Source: an uncultured Candidatus Saccharibacteria bacterium (GTDB taxonomy: Bacteria; Patescibacteriota; Saccharimonadia; Saccharimonadales; Saccharimonadaceae). Taken from it: a DNA stretch of 64,000 nucleotides. Shown one piece after another: positions 9,935 through 60,092 of this stretch. Under the pieces are notes generated by a model. That model was not told where the DNA came from. It ran no database searches and was given only the letters and a program-made list of their open reading frames with translations. Each line of letters begins with the position of its first letter. Positions within the stretch are counted from its first letter, which is position 1. Position numbers and translations under genes: made by a program. The stretch is from positions 2,949 through 66,948 of the forward strand of contig CAMVCW010000004.1 in NCBI GenBank assembly GCA_947166125.1, read 5' to 3'.

Positions 9935-9974
9935 CCTGTTTTACCTTTTGCCTCGCTTAAAGTTTTATCTCGGT

Positions 9975-10172
9975 TGCGGTGCCATCTTTGTAATATATGA
10001 AAAGGCGTATACAAAAAATGGCACCGCAAGGGGTGCAATAACAAGTCATATACCAGCTTACGCCTACACAGAACTTGGTCCTTACGGTACCATTTAAACT
10101 GTGTAAACGCATATTTAAAAAATGCGGCTGGTTTTTCACCATATGTCTTGTTATTGCATTTTTAGTATAGCA
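9975..10172 (-). ncRNA. Structured 5' leader, copy 1 (undescribed motif)
   Basis: -10 TGCTATACT 10164-10172; P1 10141-10158/10034-10051; box A 10080-10095; box B 10016-10031; box C 9975-9985. Confidence 0.8.
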
Positions 10173-19321: not shown

Positions 19322-19436
19322 GCAATTAAAACTACCTTTTCGGACTCGCTTGCTTCGGCCCGTCGTTACGGGCGAAGCTTCGCTCATTCCGCTCCTCGTT
19401 AGTCGCGTACGGTCCTTAAAGGTAGTTTTTAATTGC
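19322..19436. repeat. Palindromic repeat element between convergent genes
   Basis: Terminal inverted repeat gcaattaaaactaccttt/aaaggtagtttttaattgc; core nearly identical to 59983-60092. Confidence 0.85.
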
Positions 19437-20021: not shown

Positions 20022-21653
20022 TTATTTCGCCACACATCGCACAGATTTTCCAGCACTCCTGTAGCCATACGTGCCGCCATAGGGAGTTTCTGGACTGATT
20101 TTACCTAAACTGAAAGATAAGTTATAAGCGGTATTTCCACTATTAATGGTGCTAGAGTAATAAAAGCCATTAGAAGAATCTTCAAGAACTGAGTTATTAT
20201 ATATGTAACCAGGTCTTGCGAAATATAAAGGTGCTTCAGTTAATGCAATACCAGTATCGTACAAGTTGTTATTGTATAAAAAATTCAATCTAGTAAACTC
20301 ATTAGTAGAACCAAGCGTAGATCCAGACTGGTTAGATATAGTAGGTAATCTCCATCCTTTAGGACATATAGAGTTCTTGGGATTCTTAGATATATCACTT
20401 AATGTATTTTGTGTTAGTGAAGAAGAATTATTAGAGGCTATAGCTGCAGTCCAGTTATAGTAATTGCCTAGTGAGAAATGTCCTGTTTCTGTACTATCCG
20501 TCTTGTTAGCGGTATATGATGCAGTATTACTATTCTGCCAACCGGTAATAGGGCCTGTATTCTGAAAACCTATCGTAGTAGCACTGCCAGCTGGAGTATA
20601 ATATGTTATTCCATTGTCTTCTGTATATCCATCATTATATTCCGCGTATTGTCCAGTGCTAGAATCGTAGACCACATTTAAGTCTGTAGTTTGGGAATTT
20701 AGTGTAGTGTTGGCTGCTATATCAAAATCTAGATTTTGCGTCATCCAACAATGTCCATCTTTAAGTTTGGTTACCCAGTAGAGTTTATTGTCCCTAATGT
20801 CTACTAATTGGGTAGAGGTCCTTTCGTCGTTATTTGATACAGAATTACATATGTCACTAGTCATATCTTGCATAGCAAAATATGATCCATTTTCATCGCT
20901 ATAAACTTTTTGCTTACCGGCTAACCAGAAAGCAGCGTCTATGTCGTTCATAGTTGAAGCATTACTATTTGGATGTGTCAGCATATACTTCACCTGCCCA
21001 TTATAAGTACCTGCATATTGTGATGATGATGTATATACGGCATAGGTAGTAGTAAAAGATGAACCTTTAATCATATCAGTGGCTCTTGCTGGAAGTGATG
21101 CTACTTTAGTCCACCTATCTGGGACTATGCCGTATATACCATCATAGTCTAATGTAATAGTAGGTGGAGTAAGTGATGGATCATCTTTTAGGTTATTTAG
21201 ACTCATAGCCCAGTTAGATGTATTACCTGACTCTGCTGTTCCTGATACTATATTAAAGTTAGAACTTTCTGCATTAACTAGTCTATTATTACCTTCTTCA
21301 TTATTACTATACCCTACTGCATATACACTATACCCATTACCATCATTACATAGTGTAGTAATGGTAGTCTTTCCTATACCATTAGTATAAGTACCATTAA
21401 TCAATTCTGCTGTATGACTACTATCTACTACACTACTTAATGTACAGGATGATGAGATAGAAAAGGATAAACTATCTGTGGAGGAAGTAGAGCCACTACT
21501 AGAACTAGCAGCAGAGCTATGAAATGATAAATGAGATAAAACAACACCAGAAACCACAAGAAGAGGAATAGAAACTAACAATACATTACGGAAAGCATAG
21601 TAGAAGAAATCTATTCTACTACTCATTAAAGATTGTTTTACTTTGTGGCCCAT
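20022..21653 (-). CDS. Surface protein, type-beta N-domain plus FISUMP (Fib_succ_major)-like C-domain
   Basis: GHCWMTQNL, GNYYNWTAA, SICPKGWRLP, SVRC motifs; N-terminal TM helix. Confidence 0.8.
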   Translation of the reverse strand: MGHKVKQSLMSSRIDFFYYAFRNVLLVSIPLLVVSGVVLSHLSFHSSAASSSSGSTSSTDSLSFSISSSCTLSSVVDSSHTAELINGTYTNGIGKTTITTLCNDGNGYSVYAVGYSNNEEGNNRLVNAESSNFNIVSGTAESGNTSNWAMSLNNLKDDPSLTPPTITLDYDGIYGIVPDRWTKVASLPARATDMIKGSSFTTTYAVYTSSSQYAGTYNGQVKYMLTHPNSNASTMNDIDAAFWLAGKQKVYSDENGSYFAMQDMTSDICNSVSNNDERTSTQLVDIRDNKLYWVTKLKDGHCWMTQNLDFDIAANTTLNSQTTDLNVVYDSSTGQYAEYNDGYTEDNGITYYTPAGSATTIGFQNTGPITGWQNSNTASYTANKTDSTETGHFSLGNYYNWTAAIASNNSSSLTQNTLSDISKNPKNSICPKGWRLPTISNQSGSTLGSTNEFTRLNFLYNNNLYDTGIALTEAPLYFARPGYIYNNSVLEDSSNGFYYSSTINSGNTAYNLSFSLGKISPETPYGGTYGYRSAGKSVRCVAK

Positions 21654-21694
21654 CTTTTACCTCATTTATATATATGATTACTACTACTCCCCCA

Positions 21695-21886
21695 TGTGGT
21701 GCCACTATATTAATGGGGATTAACAAAAATGGCACCGCAAGGGGTGCAAAACACTATTATCGTCCATAGCAAGTATGCAACGCCAATAGGTACCTTGCGG
21801 CGCCATTTCTTTAGCGTTGCTTAATGAGTTACATTAAAATGTGCTACGGAACGTCGATAAAAGTGTTTTGCTCTTTCATTATAGCA
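21695..21886 (-). ncRNA. Structured 5' leader, copy 2
   Basis: -10 TGCTATAAT 21878-21886; P1 21855-21871/21746-21762; box A 21793-21808; box B 21727-21742; box C 21695-21705. Confidence 0.8.
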
Positions 21887-22202
21887 TATAAATTTCTATG
21901 CAGAATTAAAAATCAAAAAATTAGAAAATTGTACATTTTACTAGTGCTTAAAATAAGCAAGGCACAATGAAATTTAAGCCTAGGCGGTTTGTGATAAAAT
22001 TGTTGTTCGCGCGACAAAATATTTTTGTGCGGGTGGGGGTTGAAATTATGAATAGAGTGTGCATATACTATAGGCGGGTTGGCTTCGGGGTTTAATGAGC
22101 TAGAGTTCACAAGCTTAAAATGTATTTAGGTTTGCGGTTGTGTGAGGGTCCATTAAACGGTTATTCTAGGTAAACTAGGATCCCTAGGAAGGAGATGGTT
22201 AA

Positions 22203-22277
22203 ATGACCATACAGATCAATCTGTTATGCATCATCTTTCCAAATCGGAAACGCCGAAGTAAAAAAGTTAGGCCGTAA
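22203..22277 (+). CDS. Type I toxin-like peptide, copy 1 (MTIQINLLCIIFPNRKRRSKKVRP)
   Basis: SD AAGGAGA; conserved in a second copy with a synonymous change; upstream TTGAAA-N18-TATACT promoter and long leader. Confidence 0.65.
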   Translation: MTIQINLLCIIFPNRKRRSKKVRP

Positions 22278-22330
22278 AGCCTAACCTACCAACCTACAGA
22301 GAAGTCGTCCTAGAGGGCTTCTCTTTTGTG
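22260..22330 (-). ncRNA. Convergent antisense sRNA, copy 1
   Basis: -10 TGATACAAT at 22336-22344; hairpin with a CUCUAGGA loop; terminator gttaggc/gcctaac plus U6. Confidence 0.6.
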
Positions 22331-22341
22331 CTTTGATTGTA

Positions 22342-23964
22342 TCACGAAATTATCTCTATGTCCACAATACGAGCCTCGGCAGATTTTACACCGTTGAAAT
22401 CATTCTCCATTAGTTTAATCAGTGGTACTATCTTGTCTTCCGAGGTAAGACTTAGCCACTGCTCTGGAGCATAGAAGGCAACGAGTTTTAGATTATTACC
22501 TTTTCTATCCCTGATATCTAGGCGGAGGTGATTTTGTTCGGTGCCCATGTGAGAAATATTAACGATATCTACTTCTGGCAAGCGGAAAATCGGCTCTTCG
22601 TTCCCTGCACCGAAGGGCTCTAGGGATTTTAGTTCTTCTAGAAATTGCAGAGATAAATCAGAAAGGTTCGCGACATCTAGGTCGGCTCGCTGCTTGAGAT
22701 ATTTTGTTTGATCTACTAGATGCAAGCTTTTATAATATTCATTGATTTTCTCGCGAAATGCATAGAGCTGCTTGCCATCTACCCGTACACCGGCGGCGCC
22801 AGCATGGCCACCACCACCAATGATAGAATCCTTGGCATAGTCTAGAGCTTTGGCCAAGCTAAAATCACCAAAGCTACGGCCAGAGCCCTTAAAAATACCA
22901 TTTTCTACCTCTGATAATACAAAGGCTGGACGCTGATATTCTTCTACTAAACGGCCGGCAATAATCCCCAAGATGCCTTCGTGCCAAGAGCCAGTCTCTA
23001 TAATGACTGGATCATCCGAAACGCCGCGGGTGGAGATTTCTTTGATAGCGGCTTGCTGTTCAGTTTTGCGTTTTTTATTGAGGTCTTCTAGCTGTTCGGC
23101 GAGAGCGGCGGCATCAGTAGGAGAAGCGGCGCGAAGTAAATCTAGTGAAAGATGAGCAGACTTCAGCCGGCCGGCGGCGTTTAACCGTGGGCCAATCTGA
23201 AAACCGATGCTTTCGGCAGTTAAATTTTTTACTCGGGCACGAGACATTAATTCTTTTAGGCCAGCGCGGCGAGTTTTTTCTAAGACCTTGATGCCGTAAT
23301 AACCAAGAATACGGTTTTCGCCAGTGAGAAGCATATTGTCGCAGATGGTGCCGATCAGCACTAAATCTAGCAGCCACTTCTCTTGGCCGGCCGGGATGAG
23401 ACTTTTTTGCACTAAGCCTTGCGCCACCTTAAAGGCTACGCCCACACCGGCAAGATCCCTCAGGCCATTTACGGCGGCAAAATCTGGGCGCTTGGGATTT
23501 ACTACAGCCAGAGCCTCTGGTAATTCGTCGCCACATTCATGATGATCTGTGACGACGGTATCTATATCTAAGGTATTTAGCTCGTCTATAATGGCGTGAT
23601 TGCGTGAGCCGCAGTCTACCGTAATTACTAGTTTAGTCCCCTGTTTTTTGACGCGAGTAATTAGACGCGGACTCATGCCGTAGCCATCCGCAAAACGGTC
23701 CGGCAACATAATATCTATATTTTCAGGATTGGCGCCGGCCAGAGCAAGCGCATCCGCCATTACAGTACTAGCGGTGACGCCATCTACATCGTAATCACCA
23801 TAGATTAAAATCTTCTCGTTCTCTGCTATAGCTTGATTAATTCTGTCTGCCGCCTTATCTAAATCCGGTAAAATGAATGGATCAGTGAGATTTTCGTATC
23901 TAGGGGCCAAAAAACTACGGTCTAGCCCACGCGCTTCTAATAAGCGTTCAAATAATTTACTCAT
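22342..23964 (-). CDS. recJ: ssDNA exonuclease RecJ
   Basis: YGDYDVDG, ITVDCG, TDHH (DHH), GPRLNAAGR, GGGHAGAAG. Confidence 0.95.
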   Translation of the reverse strand: MSKLFERLLEARGLDRSFLAPRYENLTDPFILPDLDKAADRINQAIAENEKILIYGDYDVDGVTASTVMADALALAGANPENIDIMLPDRFADGYGMSPRLITRVKKQGTKLVITVDCGSRNHAIIDELNTLDIDTVVTDHHECGDELPEALAVVNPKRPDFAAVNGLRDLAGVGVAFKVAQGLVQKSLIPAGQEKWLLDLVLIGTICDNMLLTGENRILGYYGIKVLEKTRRAGLKELMSRARVKNLTAESIGFQIGPRLNAAGRLKSAHLSLDLLRAASPTDAAALAEQLEDLNKKRKTEQQAAIKEISTRGVSDDPVIIETGSWHEGILGIIAGRLVEEYQRPAFVLSEVENGIFKGSGRSFGDFSLAKALDYAKDSIIGGGGHAGAAGVRVDGKQLYAFREKINEYYKSLHLVDQTKYLKQRADLDVANLSDLSLQFLEELKSLEPFGAGNEEPIFRLPEVDIVNISHMGTEQNHLRLDIRDRKGNNLKLVAFYAPEQWLSLTSEDKIVPLIKLMENDFNGVKSAEARIVDIEIIS

Positions 23965-24370: not shown

Positions 24371-26317
24371 ATGTTTTATGAGGTAATACCGGGGAAAGTG
24401 TTTGGTAAGGCTGGCGGTGTGCTAACCTATGAGTCTGATAATTCCCTGGTGCCGGGGCAGATTGTAGTGGTGCCGCTAGGGCGAGGTAAGGCAGTAGGCG
24501 TAGTTAGTAAAAAAGTTGCACAACCGAATTTTGCTACGAAAAAGATTTTGCAAGTTTTGTATTCAACGCCGCTGCCGGCACATTTAATTGCTACGGCGAA
24601 GTTCGTAGCAGAATATTACCAAGTGCCGCTAGCTAGCACTCTGGGGCTAATACTGCCAAATGGAGTAGATAAGAGGCGGCGAAAAACCGAACAAATGTTC
24701 GGGGACATAGCAAAAACCGAACAGGCCGCTGCTAATGCGGAAATCCCGCTTAACCAGGCTCAGAAAAATGCGCTAGAAGCCCTAAAAAAGGCCACAGGAG
24801 CCACGAAACTACTGCATGGCGTGACCGGAAGCGGTAAAACTAATATATACCTCAAAATGGCTAAAAATGCTCTTTTAGCGCAAAAATCTACTATACTTTT
24901 GGTGCCGGAAATAGCTTTAACAGGGCAACTTGTTCGGGTTTTTGAGAAATATTTTGGCGACAAGGTAGTGTTAATCCATTCCCGACAGACAGAGGCTGAG
25001 CGACATTTAATCTTTAATTCCCTCCTAGAAACAGATGAAACTAAGATAATAATAGGGCCAAGATCCGCCCTGTTTGCACCTTTAAAAAACCTGGGGCTAA
25101 TTATTATAGATGAGGCACATGAGGGCACTTACCGCCAAGAGAACGCGCCAAAATACTCGGCGATACGGGTAGCAAGCTATATGGCTGGAAAGCTAGGGAT
25201 TGACCTGATTTTGGGGTCGGCTACCCCTACGGTGGAAGATTATTACCTAGCAAAGAAGAAGGGGGCCTTGGCAATATTAAAAGAAAAGGCCAAAACCACC
25301 GCAGTGAGGCCAGAAATTAAGATTATAGACCTAAAAAACAGAGATAATTTTAGTAAAAACCGGTATTTTTCCAATTCCCTACTTGCGGCGATCAAAAACA
25401 ACTTAGAACAGGGGCAACAGACGCTGATTTTCCATAATCGTAGGGGATCCGCACCGTTGACGATTTGTGAGGATTGTGGCGAAGAGATGCTGTGCCCAAA
25501 CTGTTTTTTGCCTTTAACCTTACACGCTGATAGCTACGAGCTGGTGTGTCACACTTGCGGGCATACTGAGCGAGTGCCACTAAATTGCCCCAAATGTGGT
25601 GCGCCGGGGATAATTCACAAAGGGTTTGGTACTAAATTATTAGAGAGTGAGTTAAAAAAACTCTTCCCTAGTGCGCGAGTACAGAGGTTTGATGCGGACA
25701 ACAAGAAAAATGAGGGATTAGATGCCACATACACAGAGGTGCACGATGGCAAAGTGGATATATTAGTGGGGACACAAACTTTAGCAAAGGGGCTAGATCT
25801 GCCGCGATTGGCCACCGTGGGGGTGGCGCAGGCCGATGCTGGGCTAGCCTTACCAGATTATATGGCGGAAGAACGGACTTTTCAACTGATTACCCAGGTG
25901 ATAGGCCGAGTGGGGCGGGGGCATAGCGACAAAGCAGAGGTGTTTATCCAGACATTTCGGCCGGAAAGCCCTGTGATAAATATGGCAGCAGAGTCTGATT
26001 ATCTGGGGTTTTATGAATATACAGTGAAAAAGCGACGCAAGGCCGGGTTTCCGCCGTTTATGTTTGTGGCGAAGCTAGAAATCACAATGAAAACAGAGGC
26101 GACAGTGCTAAAGAAAGTACGTGCGACGGTGGTAAGCCTTACCCGAGATAAGCGACTACTGGTTTCCCCGCCAATGCCGGCGTTTCACGAGTATACTAGC
26201 CGGGGCTATACCTGGCAGATTATCGTGCGAGCTAAATCTCGTAAAGTACTGATAGAGACGTGTAAAGATTTAGACCCTAATTTCCGCGTAACCTTTGACC
26301 CGGTGGGGCTGTTATAA
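24371..26317 (+). CDS. priA: Primosomal protein N'
   Basis: HGVTGSGKT, IIIDEAHE, tandem CxxC zinc motifs, LVGTQTLAKGLD, QVIGRVGR. Confidence 0.95.
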   Translation: MFYEVIPGKVFGKAGGVLTYESDNSLVPGQIVVVPLGRGKAVGVVSKKVAQPNFATKKILQVLYSTPLPAHLIATAKFVAEYYQVPLASTLGLILPNGVDKRRRKTEQMFGDIAKTEQAAANAEIPLNQAQKNALEALKKATGATKLLHGVTGSGKTNIYLKMAKNALLAQKSTILLVPEIALTGQLVRVFEKYFGDKVVLIHSRQTEAERHLIFNSLLETDETKIIIGPRSALFAPLKNLGLIIIDEAHEGTYRQENAPKYSAIRVASYMAGKLGIDLILGSATPTVEDYYLAKKKGALAILKEKAKTTAVRPEIKIIDLKNRDNFSKNRYFSNSLLAAIKNNLEQGQQTLIFHNRRGSAPLTICEDCGEEMLCPNCFLPLTLHADSYELVCHTCGHTERVPLNCPKCGAPGIIHKGFGTKLLESELKKLFPSARVQRFDADNKKNEGLDATYTEVHDGKVDILVGTQTLAKGLDLPRLATVGVAQADAGLALPDYMAEERTFQLITQVIGRVGRGHSDKAEVFIQTFRPESPVINMAAESDYLGFYEYTVKKRRKAGFPPFMFVAKLEITMKTEATVLKKVRATVVSLTRDKRLLVSPPMPAFHEYTSRGYTWQIIVRAKSRKVLIETCKDLDPNFRVTFDPVGLL

Positions 26318-26374
26318 ATTGACTTTTAGATAAAAATGCATGCAGTTTATGTATGATCTAAAGAGGTAAATTCA

Positions 26375-28090
26375 TCACCGGGCGAGACAGCGGATAGACA
26401 AACCAGCCATTTTTTGTAAACTTTTATTGGCTAAATTGACCCCACCCGTGTAAAGATGCAAAAAATAGGCTGAAGAATAATCAAGAGTATTGGACCAGTA
26501 GTAACCGCCCCTGTATAGTGTTCCAGCGTTTATGCCACCGGGTAGTACGAAATATAGAGGCTCAGAACGCAGGGCATTAAAACCATTTGATTGATAGTTT
26601 ACTGGATTAGTACCATTAGATGGTGACGTAACTATATCGTATCCATAATCACGGTAGAGTAATCTACCAAATTCATTATATTCATTGTCTGTAGTAGAAG
26701 CATTAGGTAGTCTCCAGCCTTTAGGACAAATAGAGCTGGCAGCTCTGGTGCTGTCTACTGAAATGCTAGCAGAATTATTAGACGCTATAGCTGCAGTCCA
26801 GTTATAGTAATTACCAGCATGATAATGTTTACATTCTCCCTCTGTATGACCTGCGGTAATACAGGCAGACAACGAGGTGTATTTTATATCATCTGACGTA
26901 GAGTTTGATGTATAGTAATATACATCACCTGGATCTGCAGAATATGGATAGTTATTTTGATTAGACCAACCAGGAACAGAAGTACCGTTTACTGGTAGGT
27001 TATATTTACCATTAGTGGTGTCTGGTGTCCAGGTGGCATTAGCATCAAAGTTATTTGTGTCCCAGCCTAGGTCTGTATCATTATGGGTATAGGTTCTGGT
27101 GGCGTCTATCTCTAAATCCAAGTTTTGTGTCATCCAACAATGGCCATCTGCTAACTTTGCTACCCAGTAAAGCCTACTATCTCGCAAATCTACTAGTTGT
27201 GTAGCGGTAACCTCCCCGCTGTTACCTACAAGACTACATATTTGAGAGTCCATATCCTGCATAGCATAATATGAATTGCCGCCCTCTTCATAGGCTTTTA
27301 TTTTACCCGCCATAGCGAAGGTAGTGTCTAAGTCTGGAATAGTGTTATTATTACTATTTGGATGCACTATAACATATTTTACTTTACCATTATAAGTACC
27401 TGCAGGTTGATATGAATTAGCATAAATCTGGTAAGTAGTGTTTAGGTATGAACCTGAAGCATCACTGTCTGTTATCATACTAGTACCTGATGTTCTTTTA
27501 GCTACTTGAGTATAGACATTTGGTATAGCACTATAGTTATCAAAGCCATTAATGATAGTAGGTGGAGTGGTAGGTACTGAGCCTCCTGTAGTTGGGTCTA
27601 TACCAGTACCAGTACCGGCAGTTAGTTTCATAGCCCAGGAAGAAGGATTGGTTTGAGCAGAGTCATCATATACTCCAGTATGGATATTATAGCTTTCATT
27701 TACTGTATTAATTAAGTCTGTGTTACCATCCGTGTCTCCACTACTACCTACGGCATAGATACTATAGCCATTATTGTCATTACAAAAGGCACTGAGTTTA
27801 GTATTGCCTACATTATCATCCTTTTGGCCACCATGGAGGCTGGTTTCATGTGCTTCTGTAACTACGGCATTTACTGTACAGGAAGTAGATAAGACTAATT
27901 GAATATTGTCTGTACCACTACTTATTTCTGCAGACGAATGAGGAATAGTGAAAACAAAGATAGAAAAGATAAGAAGAGGAACAGAAACCAACAATACATT
28001 GCGGAAAGCATAGTAGAAGAAATCTGTTCTACATGACACAGTTTTATGCACCTTTACTTTATGATTAGCTTTAGTGGTTCTATGGCCCAT
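26375..28090 (-). CDS. Surface protein, type-beta N-domain plus FISUMP-like C-domain
   Basis: GHCWMTQNL, GNYYNWTAA, SICPKGWRLP, SIRC; N-terminus shares RxDFFYYAFRNVLLVS with 20022-21653. Confidence 0.8.
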   Translation of the reverse strand: MGHRTTKANHKVKVHKTVSCRTDFFYYAFRNVLLVSVPLLIFSIFVFTIPHSSAEISSGTDNIQLVLSTSCTVNAVVTEAHETSLHGGQKDDNVGNTKLSAFCNDNNGYSIYAVGSSGDTDGNTDLINTVNESYNIHTGVYDDSAQTNPSSWAMKLTAGTGTGIDPTTGGSVPTTPPTIINGFDNYSAIPNVYTQVAKRTSGTSMITDSDASGSYLNTTYQIYANSYQPAGTYNGKVKYVIVHPNSNNNTIPDLDTTFAMAGKIKAYEEGGNSYYAMQDMDSQICSLVGNSGEVTATQLVDLRDSRLYWVAKLADGHCWMTQNLDLEIDATRTYTHNDTDLGWDTNNFDANATWTPDTTNGKYNLPVNGTSVPGWSNQNNYPYSADPGDVYYYTSNSTSDDIKYTSLSACITAGHTEGECKHYHAGNYYNWTAAIASNNSASISVDSTRAASSICPKGWRLPNASTTDNEYNEFGRLLYRDYGYDIVTSPSNGTNPVNYQSNGFNALRSEPLYFVLPGGINAGTLYRGGYYWSNTLDYSSAYFLHLYTGGVNLANKSLQKMAGLSIRCLAR

Positions 28091-28131: not shown

Positions 28132-28321
28132 TGTGGTGCCACTATATTAATGGGGATTAACAAAAATGGCACCGCAAGGGGTGCTATAACCTAATCAAAG
28201 TAATCGTGCGAACACATGTACTCGACGGTAACCCTGCGGTGCCGTTTGTAAGTACATATACTCGCCTATAAAATAGGCACGATTTTATTAATGATTAAGT
28301 TATAGCATCTTCATTATAGCA
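28132..28321 (-). ncRNA. Structured 5' leader, copy 3
   Basis: -10 TGCTATAAT 28313-28321; P1 28292-28307/28182-28197; box A 28232-28247; box B 28164-28179; box C 28132-28142. Confidence 0.8.
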
Positions 28322-48136: not shown

Positions 48137-48156
48137 TCACCCCTGTAACGGGGTGA
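48137..48156 (-). terminator. Terminator of the 16S transcription unit
   Basis: tcacccc/ggggtga stem followed by a U-tract on the minus strand. Confidence 0.75.
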
Positions 48157-48318
48157 AATTTGTTTAACAACTTAGTTGTGCAATTTCATCTGTAGTTAAA
48201 AGCTTAATGTTACGTCTGGCGGACCAGAAATGTTATGATTCAAGCTTGCATAATCATAACCGTAACCGACCTAGATACATGCGTCCTTACGGATTCATGC
48301 TCATCAATTCCTTCTCAA

Positions 48319-49854
<1,536 letters not shown>

Positions 49855-49977
49855 AGTAATGTTAAATTTGAAAACTCAACATAATAAATAAACTGACGAT
49901 GATTAATTGCACAACTAAATTGTTAAACTATTTTCAAAGACTCTTAAAATAACTTCTCGCAGCTTTGAACTGTTACC

Positions 49978-50006
49978 ATCTTATCGCAGATTATTAGTTT
50001 TGTCAA
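49978..50006 (-). promoter_or_regulatory. 16S promoter
   Basis: TTGACA-N17-TAAGAT. Confidence 0.7.
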
Positions 50007-51108
50007 CACTTTTTTTGGAGATTTTTGGATAATTTTTGCGATTTGGTATAAACCACCAAACAATTAGACCAATCCCAGTCGCAATGAGTGCGATTATCCA
50101 CCATGGCATGTTTATTTCCCTACTATGATTTTCGGTAGGATACGGCTCGGCACCGGTGTTGGGAGCTTTCGTTAAGTTATCTAATGCGGTGCGATTTATC
50201 GGCAATTCTATTGACTCTGGGATATCGCTAGCGGCGCCATAGCCAAGCTCTTCTGTGCGGCCCGGAGTTACATCGCTAGATATTGGTTCTGGCGTGTCCG
50301 GAATATCTGAAGTGGGTTCAGTTTCATCTGGAATACTAGGCGCATCTGGCACGGTAGAGGGTTCTGGTTCTACAATTTCGGCGCGGGGCGGAAAGAATTT
50401 CATCCACTTGTCGCCAGAAATCATTAGTTTACACTCCGCGCCTTCTTCGTAATCTGACGCATTAATACAATCTGAGTAATTTGTATAGCCCATAGAGTTA
50501 AAACCTCTAGTGCCGAATATGGCGTGGTCTAGCTTGCCAGAGGTATTTAGTAGCAGATCTGAACCCGGCACAGGTATTTCTATTTCTTGCCAGGCGGGGA
50601 GATGCGCAACATCTAGACCTTCGGCGATACTGTCATATACCGTATGCAGTCCCTCTATTTCGCCGCTAATAAACTGTGGGCGATAAAAATTATAGATTTG
50701 CCCGCGCCAATCATCAAACCAAGCAAGATAAAAGGAATTAAGGCGAATTTCTTCTTTAATACCCATATGAGTAAGCATTCTGTCTTCGTCGAAAAAGAGG
50801 ATTTTTACCGTTTCTTCCTTGGGATTAATAGAGGTAATCCAAAGTTGCCCTTCTATAAGATTATTGAGTGCGCTATATTTGTTCCCTTTTTCTACCATCG
50901 TCATATCGAATTCTTGCGTGCACTCTACGTCTCCGCCGCAGAGAGCTGCTTTTTCCTGCTCTACCTGATTGTAAAAATCCAACATTTCTGCTACGGACCA
51001 CCAGGTGGTACCATCATATCGCACCGCAGCGGAAGCTTGATTTGGCACTGTGGCAGCTAGAGCGCTAATGGTTAAAGTTAGTATTAGTAGGGGGATTTTT
51101 CTGCCCAT
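49981..51108 (-). CDS. Secreted surface protein with Pro/Glu/Thr-rich stalk, APNTG motif and C-terminal TM anchor
   Basis: Signal peptide; KAPNTG, then a TM helix and basic tail. Confidence 0.75.
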   Translation of the reverse strand: MGRKIPLLILTLTISALAATVPNQASAAVRYDGTTWWSVAEMLDFYNQVEQEKAALCGGDVECTQEFDMTMVEKGNKYSALNNLIEGQLWITSINPKEETVKILFFDEDRMLTHMGIKEEIRLNSFYLAWFDDWRGQIYNFYRPQFISGEIEGLHTVYDSIAEGLDVAHLPAWQEIEIPVPGSDLLLNTSGKLDHAIFGTRGFNSMGYTNYSDCINASDYEEGAECKLMISGDKWMKFFPPRAEIVEPEPSTVPDAPSIPDETEPTSDIPDTPEPISSDVTPGRTEELGYGAASDIPESIELPINRTALDNLTKAPNTGAEPYPTENHSREINMPWWIIALIATGIGLIVWWFIPNRKNYPKISKKSVDKTNNLR

Positions 51109-51319
51109 AAAACTCCTTTTTTAATTTTAGTTAGGGGAGTATAGGCATAGGTAGGAGAAAAATTCAACCCCTAGCGAGAAATTTTGTAAGTATAAACGAG
51201 TTTACCTCTGATATTTTGGGGTTTATGCTTGCGGTTAATGCTAAGCATAGACGGAATGATCAAAGCGAAAAATAGGATTTTGGCTATGAGGATTTGGCGA
51301 AGTGTGGTATAATTTAGCT

Positions 51320-51394
51320 ATAAAAAGAGAAAGTCTCTAGGAAACTTTCTCTTGATTGGTTTATCTAACTAGTGCGGAGCTAGTTAGATTTTTT
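51320..51394 (+). ncRNA. Convergent antisense sRNA, copy 2
   Basis: -10 TGGTATAAT 51305-51313; hairpin with a CUCUAGGA loop; terminator tctaactag/ctagttaga plus T6. Confidence 0.6.
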
Positions 51395-51451
51395 ACTTCG
51401 GCGTTTCCGATTTGGAAAGATGATACATAACAGATTGATCTGTATGGTCAT
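51380..51451 (-). CDS. Type I toxin-like peptide, copy 2 (MTIQINLLCIIFPNRKRRSKKSN)
   Basis: SD AAGGAGA; first 21 aa identical to copy 1. Confidence 0.65.
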   Translation of the reverse strand: MTIQINLLCIIFPNRKRRSKKSN

Positions 51452-51658
51452 TTAATTATCTCCTTCCTAGGATCCTAGTTCGCCTAGAATAACCGTTTAG
51501 TGGACCCTCACACAACCACAAACTCTTTTTAGGGCTTGTGAATTTTGTGTCCACTAAATCCCGAAGCCAACCCGGCGTTATTGTTAGCATAGGTGAGAAA
51601 ATATTTCAACCCCCAGCGGGTGGCTTATGGTTAAGATTATAATGGCTGGGGTTAAATT

Positions 51659-53122
51659 TTAGCGGGCGAGGCAGCGGACTGGAAAACCATAAGATTTGCG
51701 ATCCGCATTAGTCGTACTAAAAATATTCCCATAAAATATAGGTGCATAGGCATTAGAAACGCCAGAAGGTGTACCAAGCCAGTACCAATTATATCCTGCA
51801 TATGCGATCGCTCCATTAAATAAACCGGCTCGCGTAAAATAGATAGGACTAATCCTTAGTTTTGACGTATTAGGCCCGTAAAGGTCATAAGTTTCTGCTA
51901 ACGTAGCGAAATCATTTACTGTTTTAGCCATTGGCAATTTCCAATTGCTCGAGCATACAGAATTAGGCGCATTGTTACTGGTTAGTGTGCTAGTATTGTT
52001 ATTTGCTACAACTGCAGACCAATTGTAATAATTTCCTATGTGATAATGAGTGCAGTCGTCGTGCCCCGCATTGATACATTCTTGTAACGAGGTGTATGTT
52101 GTATCGTTTGCGGTGGAATTTGATGTATATATGTATTTATCTCCAGGATTAGCAGAATACGGCTCAGTATTACTATCAACCCAACCATCCACTGTAGTGC
52201 CAGTAAAGTTTATGGTAGAGTGACCTTCGGTTGGTTTCCAGGTGGCAGTTTCGTCACCTGTAGTCCAACCTAAGTCTGTATCGTAATGGGTATAGGTTCT
52301 AGTATCGTCTATGTCCAAATCTAAGTTCTGTGTCATCCAACAATTATTGTCTGCTAGTTTTGCTATCCAGTAGACTTTATCGTCTCGTATATCTATGACT
52401 TGGAGCTGGGATCCTATATCTTCAGTCTCTTCGCAGATGGTATGCGTCATATCTTGCATTTTGTAGTAGCCATGGTAGAGTTCTTTACCTTCTTTAGTAT
52501 AGGCATCAGCTAGGGTGATGGGAGTTGGTTTAGTAATTGCAGTGAAGTTAATGATATTAGTATAGGTACCGGATGGTTGAGTACTACCTGCTTTAGCTGC
52601 TATTTTGAAGTTAATAGTATCATTGCTTGAACCAGAGTTTTTCTTTAATCTAGTGGGATTATTTGTAGTGTATAATGGTAAACCATTATAGTTAGACCAA
52701 GTAGTACCATGATCTAGTGAGTAGGTATAGCCCCAGGTATTGTCTGTAGTGAGAGCAGAGAGATTGGCAGTGGTGGGGATGCTGGAGAATACATCCGTAT
52801 TGTCAGTATGAGTGAAATTGGTGTTATTGTATGTTTCGTTTCCTACTGTAGCATATAGATTATAGCCATAGACGTTGTTAGTAGCTACATTAACTAAGAT
52901 TTCATTACTAGTGTCTGTGGTGCTGGGAGAGAGATTAGGGATGGTGAGATTATTTGGAGATAGACTAATGGAAAGAGTGGGATTGAAGGTGAAGTTGATG
53001 CCTACATCGCTTTGGTAATTTAATGCAGAAGCGCTGGGAACAGAAACTAAAACTATTGCTAAGCTGAAAAGCATTAATAGTGTGTAGACAATGTATAGCT
53101 TTTTGAATATGATTTGCCGCAT
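51659..53122 (-). CDS. Surface protein, type-alpha N-domain plus FISUMP-like C-domain
   Basis: NNCWMTQNL, GNYYNWSA, SVCSSNWKLP, FPVRC; N-domain similar to 8105-9934. Confidence 0.8.
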   Translation of the reverse strand: MRQIIFKKLYIVYTLLMLFSLAIVLVSVPSASALNYQSDVGINFTFNPTLSISLSPNNLTIPNLSPSTTDTSNEILVNVATNNVYGYNLYATVGNETYNNTNFTHTDNTDVFSSIPTTANLSALTTDNTWGYTYSLDHGTTWSNYNGLPLYTTNNPTRLKKNSGSSNDTINFKIAAKAGSTQPSGTYTNIINFTAITKPTPITLADAYTKEGKELYHGYYKMQDMTHTICEETEDIGSQLQVIDIRDDKVYWIAKLADNNCWMTQNLDLDIDDTRTYTHYDTDLGWTTGDETATWKPTEGHSTINFTGTTVDGWVDSNTEPYSANPGDKYIYTSNSTANDTTYTSLQECINAGHDDCTHYHIGNYYNWSAVVANNNTSTLTSNNAPNSVCSSNWKLPMAKTVNDFATLAETYDLYGPNTSKLRISPIYFTRAGLFNGAIAYAGYNWYWLGTPSGVSNAYAPIFYGNIFSTTNADRKSYGFPVRCLAR

Positions 53123-53164
53123 CTTACCTCGCTTATTCCCTTTGGTTAATAGGTTTACTTAGGA

Positions 53165-53378
53165 TGCGGTGCCATCTTTGTAATATATGAAAAGGCGTAT
53201 ACAAAAATGGCACCGCAAGGTGCTTTATCATCACTATTACTAACCAAAGCTTATTCGCCTAACTTAGAACATTGATGCCTTACGGCGCCATTGATAATTC
53301 TAAGTAAATAATGGCGGACAAGCTTTTAAAAAACTTTGGTCTTGTTAATAATAATGATAAAGCAATTTAATTATAGCA
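53165..53378 (-). ncRNA. Structured 5' leader, copy 4
   Basis: -10 TGCTATAAT 53370-53378; P1 53346-53364/53221-53239; box A 53278-53292; box B 53205-53220; box C 53165-53175. Confidence 0.8.
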
Positions 53379-59982: not shown

Positions 59983-60092
59983 TCAGATATCTGCCTTTTC
60001 GGACTCGCTCGCTTCGGCCCATCGTTATGGGCGAAGCTTCGCTCATTCCGCTCCTCGTTAGTCGCGTACGGTCCTTAAAGGCAGATATCTGA
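59983..60092. repeat. Palindromic repeat element
   Basis: Perfect 16-bp terminal inverted repeat tcagatatctgccttt/aaaggcagatatctga; core nearly identical to 19322-19436. Confidence 0.85.

What the first reader, a model, noticed from the sequence alone, without database searches (positions are those of the whole stretch)
51305..51615. Type I TA-like locus, copy 2 (inverted, 29 kb away), with conserved peptide and conserved CUCUAGGA loop
Seen in sequence: the first 21 codons give the same peptide, with one synonymous change (TGC/TGT). Terminator and sRNA stem sequences have diverged but stay paired, and the sRNA hairpin loop CUCUAGGA is kept. That loop can pair with UUCUAGG or UCCUAG just upstream of the SD. 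Both copies lie directly beside a FISUMP-like gene. Inference: purifying selection on peptide and RNA structure; the module may stabilise variable surface-protein cassettes.
Basis: partly seen in the sequence, partly recalled or inferred. Interest (0 to 1): 0.65.

Follow-up and report, generated by a model that had tools for sequence, protein, structure and literature searches.

The report
Small toxin-like gene with antisense RNA
A 260-base module, present in several copies in rumen Saccharibacteria, encodes a conserved 23-residue peptide and, on the opposite strand, a predicted 75-base RNA overlapping its 3' end; this is the layout of a type I toxin-antitoxin pair, which the papers searched here do not report for this phylum, but neither transcript nor any toxicity has been shown.

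Summary
Window 51305-51615 (minus strand) and 22030-22370 (plus strand) are two copies of one module. I found 12 more copies in three Saccharibacteria MAG species and four metagenome contigs: 14 copies at about 7 loci.

- **Conserved block:** it runs from a sense promoter (GGGGGTTGAAA...TATACT) to an antisense extended -10 box (TGnTAYAAT, 14/14 copies).
- **Peptide:** the ORF (MTIQINLLCIIF-PN/SG-RKRRSKK plus 2-3 variable residues) shows about 11 synonymous differences against 5 replaced codons, and no frameshift or premature stop.
- **Decayed copies:** two copies at one locus independently lost translation signals (5'UTR+SD deleted; ATG>ATA) but kept the antisense part.
- **RNA structure:** the two 3' hairpins covary strongly (12 of 20 pairs changed on both sides; 0/500 shuffles). 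The loop YUCUAGRA stays fixed.
- **Predicted mRNA fold:** the SD is buried in codons 9-13 and the 5' end pairs with codons 17-19. These helices barely vary, so they are unproven.

Best reading: a new type I toxin-antitoxin-like family of the 3'-overlap kind. Transcripts and toxicity are not demonstrated.

The loop/5'UTR pairing is short and no better than chance. The link to FISUMP surface-protein genes holds at only 3 of about 7 loci.

The parts
51580..51614 (-). Copy 2 sense promoter: GGGGG, then -35 TTGAAA (51609-51604), an 18-nt spacer, and -10 AACAAT/TAACAAT ending at 51580
   Evidence: Consensus scan. The same block with a variable spacer is present in 13 of 14 copies.
51452..51575 (-). 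Copy 2 5'UTR (about 124 nt), highly conserved and structured. It contains three CUAGG elements (51489-51483, 51478-51472, 51472-51466).
   Evidence: Helix 18-31/78-89 has one compensatory pair (A-U to G-C). CTAG density is 5-6 per 260 nt against a window mean of 1.09.
51460..51467 (-). Copy 2 Shine-Dalgarno GGAAGGAG, 8 nt before the ATG. It is predicted to pair with codons 9-13.
   Evidence: Sequence. Helix 8: 97.7% of cells paired, but mostly invariant.
51380..51451 (-). Copy 2 ORF, 23 aa plus stop: MTIQINLLCIIFPNRKRRSKKSN
   Evidence: Differences among copies are mostly synonymous.
51414..51425 (-). Predicted anti-SD UAUCAUCUUUCC inside the ORF (codons 9-13)
   Evidence: No synonymous change at codons 11-18 in 14 copies, although the search pattern allowed them.
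51395..51401 (-). CCGAAGU (codons 17-19), predicted partner of the mRNA 5' end GGCUUCGG (51568-51561). AACC (51361-51358) pairs with GGUU (51572-51569).
   Evidence: helices 1 and 2. Only wobble-compatible one-sided changes are seen.
51363..51389 (.). Hairpin A. On the + strand it is followed by TTTTTT (to about 51395), which makes it the terminator of the antisense RNA. It overlaps the last codons and the stop of the ORF.
   Evidence: Terminator scan. 7 of 11 pairs have changes on both sides.
51325..51353 (.). Hairpin B. On the - strand it is followed by UUUUU, which makes it the sense terminator. On the + strand it is the 5' hairpin of the antisense RNA and displays the loop CUCUAGGA (51335-51342).
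   Evidence: 5 of 9 pairs compensatory. The loop is invariant in 12 of 14 copies (UUCUAGGA in L007, CUCUAGAA in L010).
51305..51313 (+). Copy 2 antisense promoter, extended -10 TGGTATAAT
   Evidence: TGnTAYAAT is present in 14/14 copies at a fixed distance from hairpin B. The 7-nt spacer and the outer flank differ between loci.
51320..51395 (+). Copy 2 predicted antisense sRNA, about 75 nt, fully complementary to the mRNA 3'UTR and the last 5 codons
   Evidence: Covariance model R1 scores 85.3 bits at 51321-51394. Fold -24.9 kcal/mol, z -3.7. The transcript itself is not shown.
22036..22069 (+). Copy 1 sense promoter: GGGGG-TTGAAA, 18-nt spacer, TATACT
   Evidence: 10 of 12 matches
22076..22202 (+). 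Copy 1 5'UTR with SD GGAAGGAG at 22187-22194
22203..22277 (+). Copy 1 ORF, 24 aa plus stop: MTIQINLLCIIFPNRKRRSKKVRP
22264..22287 (.). Copy 1 hairpin A. On the - strand it is followed by TTTTTT, the antisense terminator.
22298..22325 (.). Copy 1 hairpin B (sense terminator / antisense 5' hairpin). Loop octamer at 22308-22315.
22336..22364 (-). Copy 1 antisense promoter TGGACA-17-TGaTACAAT. It overlaps the recJ stop codon (22342).
   Evidence: 10 of 12 matches, TG present
22259..22329 (-). Copy 1 predicted antisense sRNA, about 70 nt
   Evidence: R1 scores 60.9 bits at 22260-22329

Best explanation
This is a self-contained, two-promoter module of the type I toxin-antitoxin kind, in the 3'-overlap arrangement.

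**The mRNA.** A sigma-70-like promoter drives a transcript of about 255 nt. It has a 125-nt structured leader, a strong SD and a 23-24-codon ORF. The peptide has a 12-residue hydrophobic N-terminus, a PN or SG hinge, and a basic tail RKRRSKK.

**The antisense RNA.** From the other strand, an extended -10 promoter drives an RNA of about 75 nt made of two hairpins and a U6 tail. It is perfectly complementary to the mRNA 3'UTR and the last codons.

**Inferred mechanism.** The full-length mRNA is folded shut: the SD pairs with codons 9-13, and the 5' end pairs with codons 17-19 plus AACC in the 3'UTR. The antisense RNA docks through the exposed, sequence-fixed loop of its 5' hairpin and zips up with the 3'UTR. 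This leads to cleavage of the duplex (RNase III type) and/or locks the closed fold, so the peptide is made only when the short RNA runs out. The two copies in this genome have drifted apart in the overlap region, so each antisense RNA fits mainly its own mRNA.

**Shown here:** the conserved block and its limits, selection on the peptide, compensatory evolution of the two 3' hairpins, conserved promoter and terminator signals on both strands, several copies per genome, and copies with killed translation.

**Inferred, not shown:** both transcripts, the closed mRNA fold, toxicity of the peptide, and neutralisation by the RNA.
For: **Distribution.** There are 14 copies at about 7 loci, in the window, three Saccharibacteria MAG species and four metagenome contigs. 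The two MAGs whose loci hold a third copy (CAYOTX, CAMVDR) have 3 copies each. Conservation starts at the sense -35 and stops at the antisense -10; the flanks are unrelated between loci.

**Peptide.** About 11 synonymous differences are seen (codons 2, 4, 5, 6, 7, 8 twice, 9, 10, 19) against 5 replaced codons (T2A, Q4R, P13S+N14G as a frame-keeping block, S19R). One variant has an in-frame 3-nt-longer basic tail. There is no frameshift or premature stop. Copies found through the 5'UTR, so not selected for the peptide, show the same pattern (L008-L011, L006b).

**Antisense RNA.** TGnTAYAAT is present in 14/14 copies with a variable spacer. A hairpin plus U6-7 on the antisense strand is detected as a terminator in both window copies. 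12 of 20 pairs changed on both sides and 93.5% of cells are paired, against 36-48% when the partners are slid; 0/500 shuffles reach this.

**Loop.** The loop stays fixed while the stems drift. A cis-antisense pair changes both partners at once, so this implies a constraint beyond mutual complementarity.

**Decayed copies.** Two independent lesions at locus E remove translation only: L001 deletes the whole 5'UTR and SD, and L006b has ATG>ATA. The antisense part still scores 81-84 bits.

**mRNA fold.** MFE is -85.9 and -85.5 kcal/mol (z -5.6 and -3.8), with the SD and the 5' end sequestered in both copies and in the 12-sequence consensus.

**Copy specificity.** Cognate sRNA/3'UTR duplexes are -136 and -126 kcal/mol; cross duplexes are -47 and -45.

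**RNA libraries.** Module sequences appear in contigs of at least 9 rumen/gut runs labelled RNA or probably RNA (X22-X27, X35-X37), where neighbouring genes are mostly absent.
Against: - There is no strand-resolved RNA evidence. The RNA-run contigs are unstranded, some include the promoter (so DNA or read-through), and a multi-copy conserved core is easier to assemble.
- Toxicity is untested.
- The hydrophobic stretch is only about 12 residues. By the Fozo et al. 2010 rule (at least 10 of 15 residues from IVLFCMA; PMC2887945) the common peptide scores 9/15 and only the L010 variant scores 10/15. It is too short for a classical membrane-spanning helix.
- The SD/anti-SD and 5'-3' helices are nearly invariant, so covariation neither supports nor refutes them (helices 1, 2, 8).
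- In loci A, E and C a convergent gene (recJ, priA, tRNA-Pro) runs into the antisense side, so hairpin A plus U6 could also be that gene's terminator.
- There is no similarity to any Pfam, NCBIfam, PADLOC, PDB or Rfam family.
Confidence: 0.55

Rival explanations
1. This is a non-toxic small protein gene, for example a small membrane-associated or nucleic-acid-binding regulator. It has an ordinary structured mRNA. The antisense signals are a back-to-back terminator region shared with convergent genes, or give simple antisense fine-tuning.
For: The peptide is clearly selected. But it is shorter and less hydrophobic than known type I toxins (9/15 by the rule quoted). recJ, priA and the tRNA-Pro genes converge on the antisense side at three loci. 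No homology to any toxin family was found.
Against: At locus B (the copy under review) nothing converges on the antisense side, yet the antisense -10 box and U6 terminator are kept. The extended -10 is conserved in 14/14 copies with a variable spacer. There are several dispersed copies in small genomes. Two independent translation-killing lesions leave the antisense part intact. The copies are insulated from each other by divergence of the overlap region. All of this is typical of toxin/antitoxin pairs.
Confidence: 0.25
2. The short two-hairpin RNA is the main product. It would be a trans-acting regulatory sRNA whose fixed loop YUCUAGRA is a seed for targets elsewhere. The peptide mRNA would be a secondary target, a sponge or a decoy.
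For: The loop is invariant while the stems drift. The sRNA part survives in copies where peptide translation is lost. The octamer is more exposed in the antisense fold than in the sense fold (mean unpaired probability 0.44-0.66 against 0.38-0.52 in 8 copies).
Against: The full 8-nt complement has only one further match in the 64-kb window (59402), which is no more than chance (3 found, 1.6 expected). Pairing with the 5'UTR is not above shuffled controls. Strong selection on the peptide is not explained by this reading.
Confidence: 0.12
3. It is a dispersed repeat or mobile element with no cellular function. The ORF and hairpins would be by-products of recent copying or gene conversion.
For: Copies are dispersed and show presence/absence polymorphism: the module is absent from the window at locus E and present there in three other genomes. 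Core identity within one genome is high (96%).
Against: No terminal inverted repeats or target-site duplications are seen at a filled-versus-empty site. The module is absent from 2.9 million viral contigs. The excess of synonymous changes and the compensatory stem changes require selection. The block edges coincide with promoters, not with repeat termini.
Confidence: 0.05

Closest known systems
bsrG/SR4, txpA/RatA and yonT/SR6 of Bacillus subtilis (type I TA with 3' overlap)
   Same: The small toxin mRNA and the antitoxin RNA are transcribed convergently, each from its own promoter, and overlap at the 3' ends. RatA and SR6 act by RNase III cleavage of the duplex. SR4 in addition changes the fold around the ribosome-binding site (as summarised in PMC12390103; PMC3531473). 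Here the antisense RNA likewise covers the 3'UTR and the last codons, and the SD is predicted to be buried.
   Different: There is no sequence or Rfam/Pfam similarity. The peptide is 23-24 aa with about 12 hydrophobic residues, against 38-59 aa with a full transmembrane helix (my own knowledge). The overlap is about 75 nt. The phylum is different. RNase III dependence is untested.
par locus Fst/RNA II of Enterococcus faecalis (Fst/Ldr superfamily)
   Same: Transcripts are convergent with terminator hairpins in the overlap. The antitoxin also contacts the toxin's translation initiation region through short repeats (my own knowledge). The toxin is hydrophobic with a charged C-terminal cluster (PMC2887945).
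   Different: The second-site pairing here is only 6-7 bp and not above chance. The conserved tryptophan after the helix, which marks Fst/Ldr, is absent. There is no homology.
hok/Sok and aapA1/IsoA1 (type I TA whose primary mRNA is translationally inert)
   Same: A long-distance 5'-3' pairing and SD sequestration keep the full-length mRNA closed (my own knowledge). The same two features are predicted here in both copies and in the 12-sequence consensus.
   Different: In those systems the antisense RNA targets the 5' leader, not the 3'UTR. 3' processing as an activation step is unknown here. The helices are unproven by covariation.
ibs/Sib and ldr/Rdl multi-copy loci of E. coli
   Same: There are several paralogous copies per genome, with very short toxins (Ibs is 18-19 aa). 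Each antisense RNA discriminates its cognate mRNA (my own knowledge; multi-copy feature in PMC2887945). Here cognate duplexes are about 80-90 kcal/mol more stable than cross duplexes.
   Different: Copies are dispersed, not tandem. Ibs is wholly hydrophobic and Sib covers the whole ORF.

Membership tests
Type I toxin-antitoxin systems (class, not a homology family) | Short ORF (under about 70 aa) that is really translated or selected | tested here: met
   23-24 aa. About 11 synonymous differences against 5 replaced codons. The frame is kept through a 6-nt block change and a 3-nt insertion. No internal stop in 14 copies.
Type I toxin-antitoxin systems (class, not a homology family) | Hydrophobic, putatively membrane-spanning segment (Fozo 2010 rule: at least 10 of 15 residues from I, V, L, F, C, M, A) | tested here: inconclusive
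   MTIQINLLCIIFPNR scores 9/15 and the L010 variant MAIQINLLCIIFSGR scores 10/15 (rule from PMC2887945). The stretch is only about 12 residues.
Type I toxin-antitoxin systems (class, not a homology family) | Cluster of charged or polar residues at the C-terminus | tested here: met
   RKRRSKK is invariant apart from S19R and one in-frame longer basic variant.
Type I toxin-antitoxin systems (class, not a homology family) | Cis-encoded antisense RNA gene overlapping the toxin mRNA: sequence signals | tested here: met
   Extended -10 TGnTAYAAT in 14/14 copies; two covarying hairpins; U6-7 tail on the antisense strand.
Type I toxin-antitoxin systems (class, not a homology family) | Both transcripts exist in the cell | tested here: inconclusive
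   Module sequences occur in contigs of at least 9 gut/rumen runs labelled RNA or probably RNA. These contigs are unstranded and partly include the promoter. No raw stranded reads were available.
Type I toxin-antitoxin systems (class, not a homology family) | The peptide is toxic when overproduced, and the RNA neutralises it | not testable with these tools
   The only indirect hint is two independent losses of translation signals with the antisense part retained.
Type I toxin-antitoxin systems (class, not a homology family) | Toxin mRNA folded so that the SD is sequestered | tested here: inconclusive
   Predicted in both copies and in the consensus. The helices are 97.7-98.8% paired but almost invariant, so there is no covariation test.
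Known type I families (Hok, Ldr/Fst, Ibs, TxpA, BsrG, ShoB, TisB and others; Sok, RatA, SR4 and other RNAs) | Sequence or profile similarity of the peptide or the RNA | tested here: not met
   No Rfam match except a chance miRNA hit (18 bits against 70). No Pfam, NCBIfam, PADLOC or PDB hit. The peptide is absent from a collection of 15 billion proteins.
FISUMP (TIGR02145 / PF09603) neighbours | The neighbouring gene carries the FISUMP domain | tested here: met
   20022-21653 scores 44.3 bits and 26375-28090 scores 48.0 bits, against a cut-off of 41.65. 51659-53122 does not reach the model cut-off but is a paralog (33% identity over 554 aa, 2e-75).
FISUMP (TIGR02145 / PF09603) neighbours | The module is consistently linked to FISUMP-like genes | tested here: not met
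   3 of about 7 loci are linked. Locus A keeps the module without FISUMP in two species. Two of the four FISUMP-like genes in the window have no module.

The most novel reading that the evidence does not exclude
This would be the first RNA-antitoxin (type I) system, and the first cis-antisense small-RNA regulator, described in Patescibacteria/CPR. Its toxin is too short to span a membrane, so it may act in another way, for example through its basic tail on nucleic acids or ribosomes. The sequence-fixed loop shared by otherwise insulated paralogs would be a common docking or second-site element.
Probability: 0.3. Interest if true: 0.65.

Novelty: new member of a known kind. Interest (0 to 1): 0.5.

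Why it matters
According to a 2025 paper, type I toxin-antitoxin systems are known only from Proteobacteria, Firmicutes and Tenericutes, with one cyanobacterial candidate (PMC12390103). Their narrow range is suspected to be a search artefact (PMC5367252, PMC12390103). Full-text searches found no paper combining type I TA with Saccharibacteria, and none of the top CPR papers listed mentions type I toxins.

A conserved, multi-copy module of this architecture in ultra-small, host-dependent Saccharibacteria would extend the class to a new phylum. It would also give a first concrete small-RNA regulator to test in organisms where post-transcriptional control is essentially unexplored, now that genetic tools exist for Saccharibacteria (PMC10633639). 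Gene callers miss the ORF entirely: it is absent from 15 billion predicted proteins. This shows how such genes escape annotation.

Tried and rejected
- **Rfam.** The whole window at gathering threshold gives only 16S rRNA and tRNAs. The locus at E up to 10 gives only a chance miRNA hit.
- **Peptide searches.** Pfam, NCBIfam, PADLOC and PDB return nothing credible; the one hit is the DMA motif at 13 bits against a cut-off of 23. Exact look-up of 7 peptide variants in the large protein collection finds none, so I did not spend a homology search there.
- **Viral contigs.** Two patterns, 0 hits. I dropped the phage-borne idea.
- **Loop/5'UTR pairing.** RNAduplex against 200 dinucleotide shuffles per copy shows no excess. 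I kept it only as an untested possibility.
- **Trans targets of the loop in the window.** TCCTAGAG occurs once outside the modules, at chance level.
- **Mobile-element signature.** Filled and empty versions of locus E show no direct or inverted repeats at the edges.
- **Further copies in the window.** nhmmer and the covariance model find none beyond the two.
- **RNA evidence.** Only Logan contigs were available, with no strand or end information. Their ends cannot be read as transcript ends.
- **Antisense ORFs.** None is conserved across copies.
- **Reach of the scans.** The genome and metagenome scans need exact matches to one pattern each. The distribution reported is therefore a lower bound, and the seven genome-scan loci were selected for an unchanged peptide in codons 1-17.
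Full report
**1. What is at the coordinates**

The region 51305-51615 holds, on the minus strand, the following elements in order:
- a sigma-70-like promoter: GGGGG, then TTGAAA at 51609-51604, an 18-nt spacer, and a -10 box ending at 51580;
- a leader of about 124 nt;
- a strong SD, GGAAGGAG, at 51467-51460;
- a 23-codon ORF at 51451-51380, MTIQINLLCIIFPNRKRRSKKSN;
- hairpin A at 51389-51363, which overlaps the last codons;
- hairpin B at 51353-51325, followed by a U-run.

The plus strand carries an extended -10 box TGGTATAAT (51305-51313). About 7 nt downstream comes the complement of hairpin B, with CUCUAGGA (51335-51342) in its loop. Then comes the complement of hairpin A, followed by TTTTTT. 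The scan calls this last element an intrinsic terminator on the plus strand.

The second copy lies on the plus strand at 22036-22364 with the same parts. These include an antisense promoter TGGACA-17-TGaTACAAT and an antisense-strand terminator.

The two copies are 96% and 93% identical over 83 and 54 nt of leader and ORF, but only 56% identical in the 3' part. Codons 1-21 differ only by TGT/TGC.

**2. Relatives elsewhere**

The organism is a Saccharibacterium from ruminant gut. The window carries a lone 16S rRNA gene, and near-identical DNA is held by sheep, goat and bovine gut runs.

- A degenerate back-translation of the peptide found seven loci in three Saccharibacteria MAG species.
- A pattern taken from the 5'UTR, which does not constrain the ORF, found four metagenome contigs.
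- A profile of the mRNA found one more copy, in L006.

None of these loci is identical to the window. By shared flanks, the 14 copies fall into about seven loci:

| Locus | Copies | Neighbours |
|---|---|---|
| A | W_c1, L006, L007 | between a cyaB-like gene and recJ |
| B | W_c2, L002 | after a FISUMP-like gene, before the 375-aa gene |
| C | L003, L005 | PEGA-domain protein, tRNA-Pro genes, ftsH |
| D | L004, L011 | tRNA-Gln, PP2C phosphatase, SPOUT methyltransferase |
| E | L001, L006b, L008 | between a FISUMP-like gene and priA |
| - | L009 | AAA-ATPase-like gene |
| - | L010 | FemAB / DUF308 |

Similarity begins at the sense -35 and ends at the antisense -10; outside these points the flanks are unrelated between loci. 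The unit of conservation is thus exactly the two transcription units. No copy was found in viral contigs.

**3. The peptide is selected**

Across the copies and the metagenome/metatranscriptome contigs laid on the window, I count the following:
- Synonymous differences at codons 2 (third position), 4, 5, 6, 7, 8 (two kinds), 9, 10 and 19.
- Replacements at T2A, Q4R, S19R and the block P13-N14 to S-G. This block changes 5 of 6 bases but keeps the frame.
- One variant with three extra bases in the basic tail, also in frame.
- No frameshift or internal stop in any copy.

The residues after KK vary (SN, SS, SD, VRP, STR, SAK), because they lie inside the drifting hairpin A.

Seven loci were found with a pattern that fixed the peptide. 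The unbiased copies (both window copies, L006b, L008-L011 and the laid contigs) show the same excess of silent change.

Codons 11-18 show no silent change at all, although the search pattern allowed it. This fits an additional RNA-level constraint there.

The peptide matches no family or structure, and no gene caller has predicted it.

**4. The 3' hairpins and the antisense gene**

On an alignment of the 13 antisense segments, the two-hairpin structure has these properties:
- 93.5% of cells are paired, against 36-48% when the partners are slid by 1-3 columns.
- 12 of 20 pairs changed on both sides.
- No shuffle in 500 reaches the observed values.

The loop octamer is unchanged in 12 of 14 copies (UUCUAGGA in L007, CUCUAGAA in L010), while 5 of the 9 stem pairs around it vary.

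Every copy has TGnTAYAAT at a fixed distance from hairpin B. The 7-nt spacer and everything beyond it differ. Every copy also has U6-7 after hairpin A on the antisense strand.

These are the marks of a real promoter and terminator for an RNA of about 70-77 nt. A covariance model of this RNA finds all 14 copies (61-87 bits) and nothing else in the window.

One caveat applies. At loci A, E and C a convergent gene (recJ, priA, tRNA-Pro) runs into this side, so the terminator may serve that gene too. At locus B, the copy under review, nothing converges.

**5. The mRNA fold**

Both copies fold well below shuffled controls: -85.9 kcal/mol (z -5.6) and -85.5 kcal/mol (z -3.8). The 12-sequence consensus has four main features:
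- the 5' end GGUU-GCUUCGG pairs with CCGAAG(U) in codons 17-19 and with AACC in the 3'UTR;
- a leader helix carries one compensatory pair;
- a UUCUAGG/CUAGGAU hairpin forms in the leader;
- the SD GGAAGGAGAUA pairs with UAUCAUCUUUCC in codons 9-13.

The one-sided changes are wobble-compatible. However, these helices hardly vary, so covariation cannot confirm them. Nearly all compensatory signal comes from hairpins A and B.

**6. Decayed copies**

At locus E three states exist:
- L008 is intact.
- L001 has the promoter's -10 region fused directly to AGATGGTTAAATG, so the whole leader and SD are deleted.
- L006b has ATG changed to ATA.

Both damaged copies keep the rest of the ORF and a full-scoring antisense segment. 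The window has no module at this locus at all.

Independent loss of translation with the antisense part retained is what one expects of a harmful peptide gene. Two cases do not prove it.

**7. Insulation of paralogs and the loop**

Cognate sRNA/3'UTR duplexes are -136 and -126 kcal/mol, against -47 and -45 for the cross pairs. The two copies in this genome are therefore probably separate regulatory pairs.

In a cis-antisense pair any mutation changes both partners together, so mutual complementarity cannot hold the loop fixed. Something else must: a shared docking geometry, a second target, or a protein. I note from my own knowledge that CUAG fits the YUNR U-turn motif.

These are present, and CTAG is 5-6 times denser here than the window mean. 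But the pairing is 6-7 bp including wobbles, and it is not better than with shuffled leaders. It remains a hypothesis.

**8. RNA libraries**

Contigs of at least 9 rumen/gut runs labelled RNA or probably RNA (X22-X27, X35-X37) contain the module. These are 125-689-nt contigs with depth up to 22.8. In those runs the adjacent recJ, gyrA and FISUMP genes give no long matches or only short ones.

This is weak evidence. The contigs are unstranded, some run through the promoter, and a conserved multi-copy core is easier to assemble. I take it as compatible with expression and no more.

**9. FISUMP association**

Two of the four FISUMP-like genes in the window have a module beside them. In two other MAG species, locus B or locus E also pairs a FISUMP-like gene with a downstream, co-oriented module. 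The junction sequence between the FISUMP stop and the module is shared between locus B of the window and locus E of L006.

Against a general link:
- At locus A the 2-kb FISUMP gene and its leader are present only in the window's genome, while the module is present in all three genomes.
- Four other loci have unrelated neighbours.

There is some co-location in variable regions. There is no evidence that the module depends on, or stabilises, these genes.

**10. Comparison and verdict**

In architecture the module works like the 3'-overlap type I systems of Bacillus (txpA/RatA, bsrG/SR4, yonT/SR6; PMC12390103, PMC3531473). It adds a closed mRNA fold like hok or aapA1, and multi-copy insulation like ibs/Sib.

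It is not a member of any known family by sequence, and its peptide is unusually short and only marginally hydrophobic. Type I systems are reported only from Proteobacteria, Firmicutes and Tenericutes, with one cyanobacterial candidate (PMC12390103). I found no paper combining type I TA with Saccharibacteria, and none of the top CPR papers listed mentions type I toxins.

I rate it a new member of a known kind. My confidence is:
- 0.55 that it is a type I TA-like pair;
- about 0.9 that the ORF is a real gene;
- about 0.75 that the antisense RNA gene is real.

Noticed in passing
window 19332-19425 and 59991-60084: A 94-nt intergenic repeat, two copies 95% identical, closed by an 8-bp terminal stem CUACCUUU/AAAGGUAG. 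The minus strand folds at -42.5 kcal/mol (z -5.8). There is no Rfam match. It may be an unannotated structured RNA or a small repeat element.
   Followed up: partly
window 9961-10042, 21712-21753, 28149-28190, 53151-53231: A conserved leader upstream of the four FISUMP-like paralogs. On the gene strand it forms a long hairpin, UGCGGUGCCAU...AUGGCACCGCA (-26 to -29 kcal/mol, z about -5.6). It could be a shared regulatory element of this surface-protein family.
   Followed up: partly
window 51138-51171 (-): A third copy of the module's promoter block (GGGGTTGAAT, 18-nt spacer, TATACT) sits in front of the 375-aa gene 49981-51108. GGGGTTGAA occurs only at these three places in the window.
   Followed up: partly
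window 20022-22000 compared with L006 and L007: The 543-aa FISUMP gene and its leader (about 2 kb) are present in this genome between the cyaB-like gene and the module. They are absent at the orthologous site of two other MAG species. This is an indel of a surface-protein cassette.
   Followed up: partly
window 26317-26375 compared with L001, L006 2622-2874 and L008: The module shows presence/absence polymorphism between priA and a FISUMP-like gene. It is absent here, intact in L008, lacks its leader in L001, and has a mutated start codon in L006. No repeats mark the edges.
   Followed up: yes
window 48154-48185 and 49905-49936: A 32-nt inverted repeat (91%) brackets the lone 16S rRNA gene (48320-49854, -), like an rRNA processing stalk. 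No 23S gene is adjacent. tRNA-Ala and tRNA-Ile lie 5.5 kb away on the other strand.
   Followed up: no
L003 707-1160; L005 3-179; L004 2685-2759; L011 3484-3558: Two of the module loci lie beside tRNA genes: a cluster of three tRNA-Pro genes, and tRNA-Gln.
   Followed up: no
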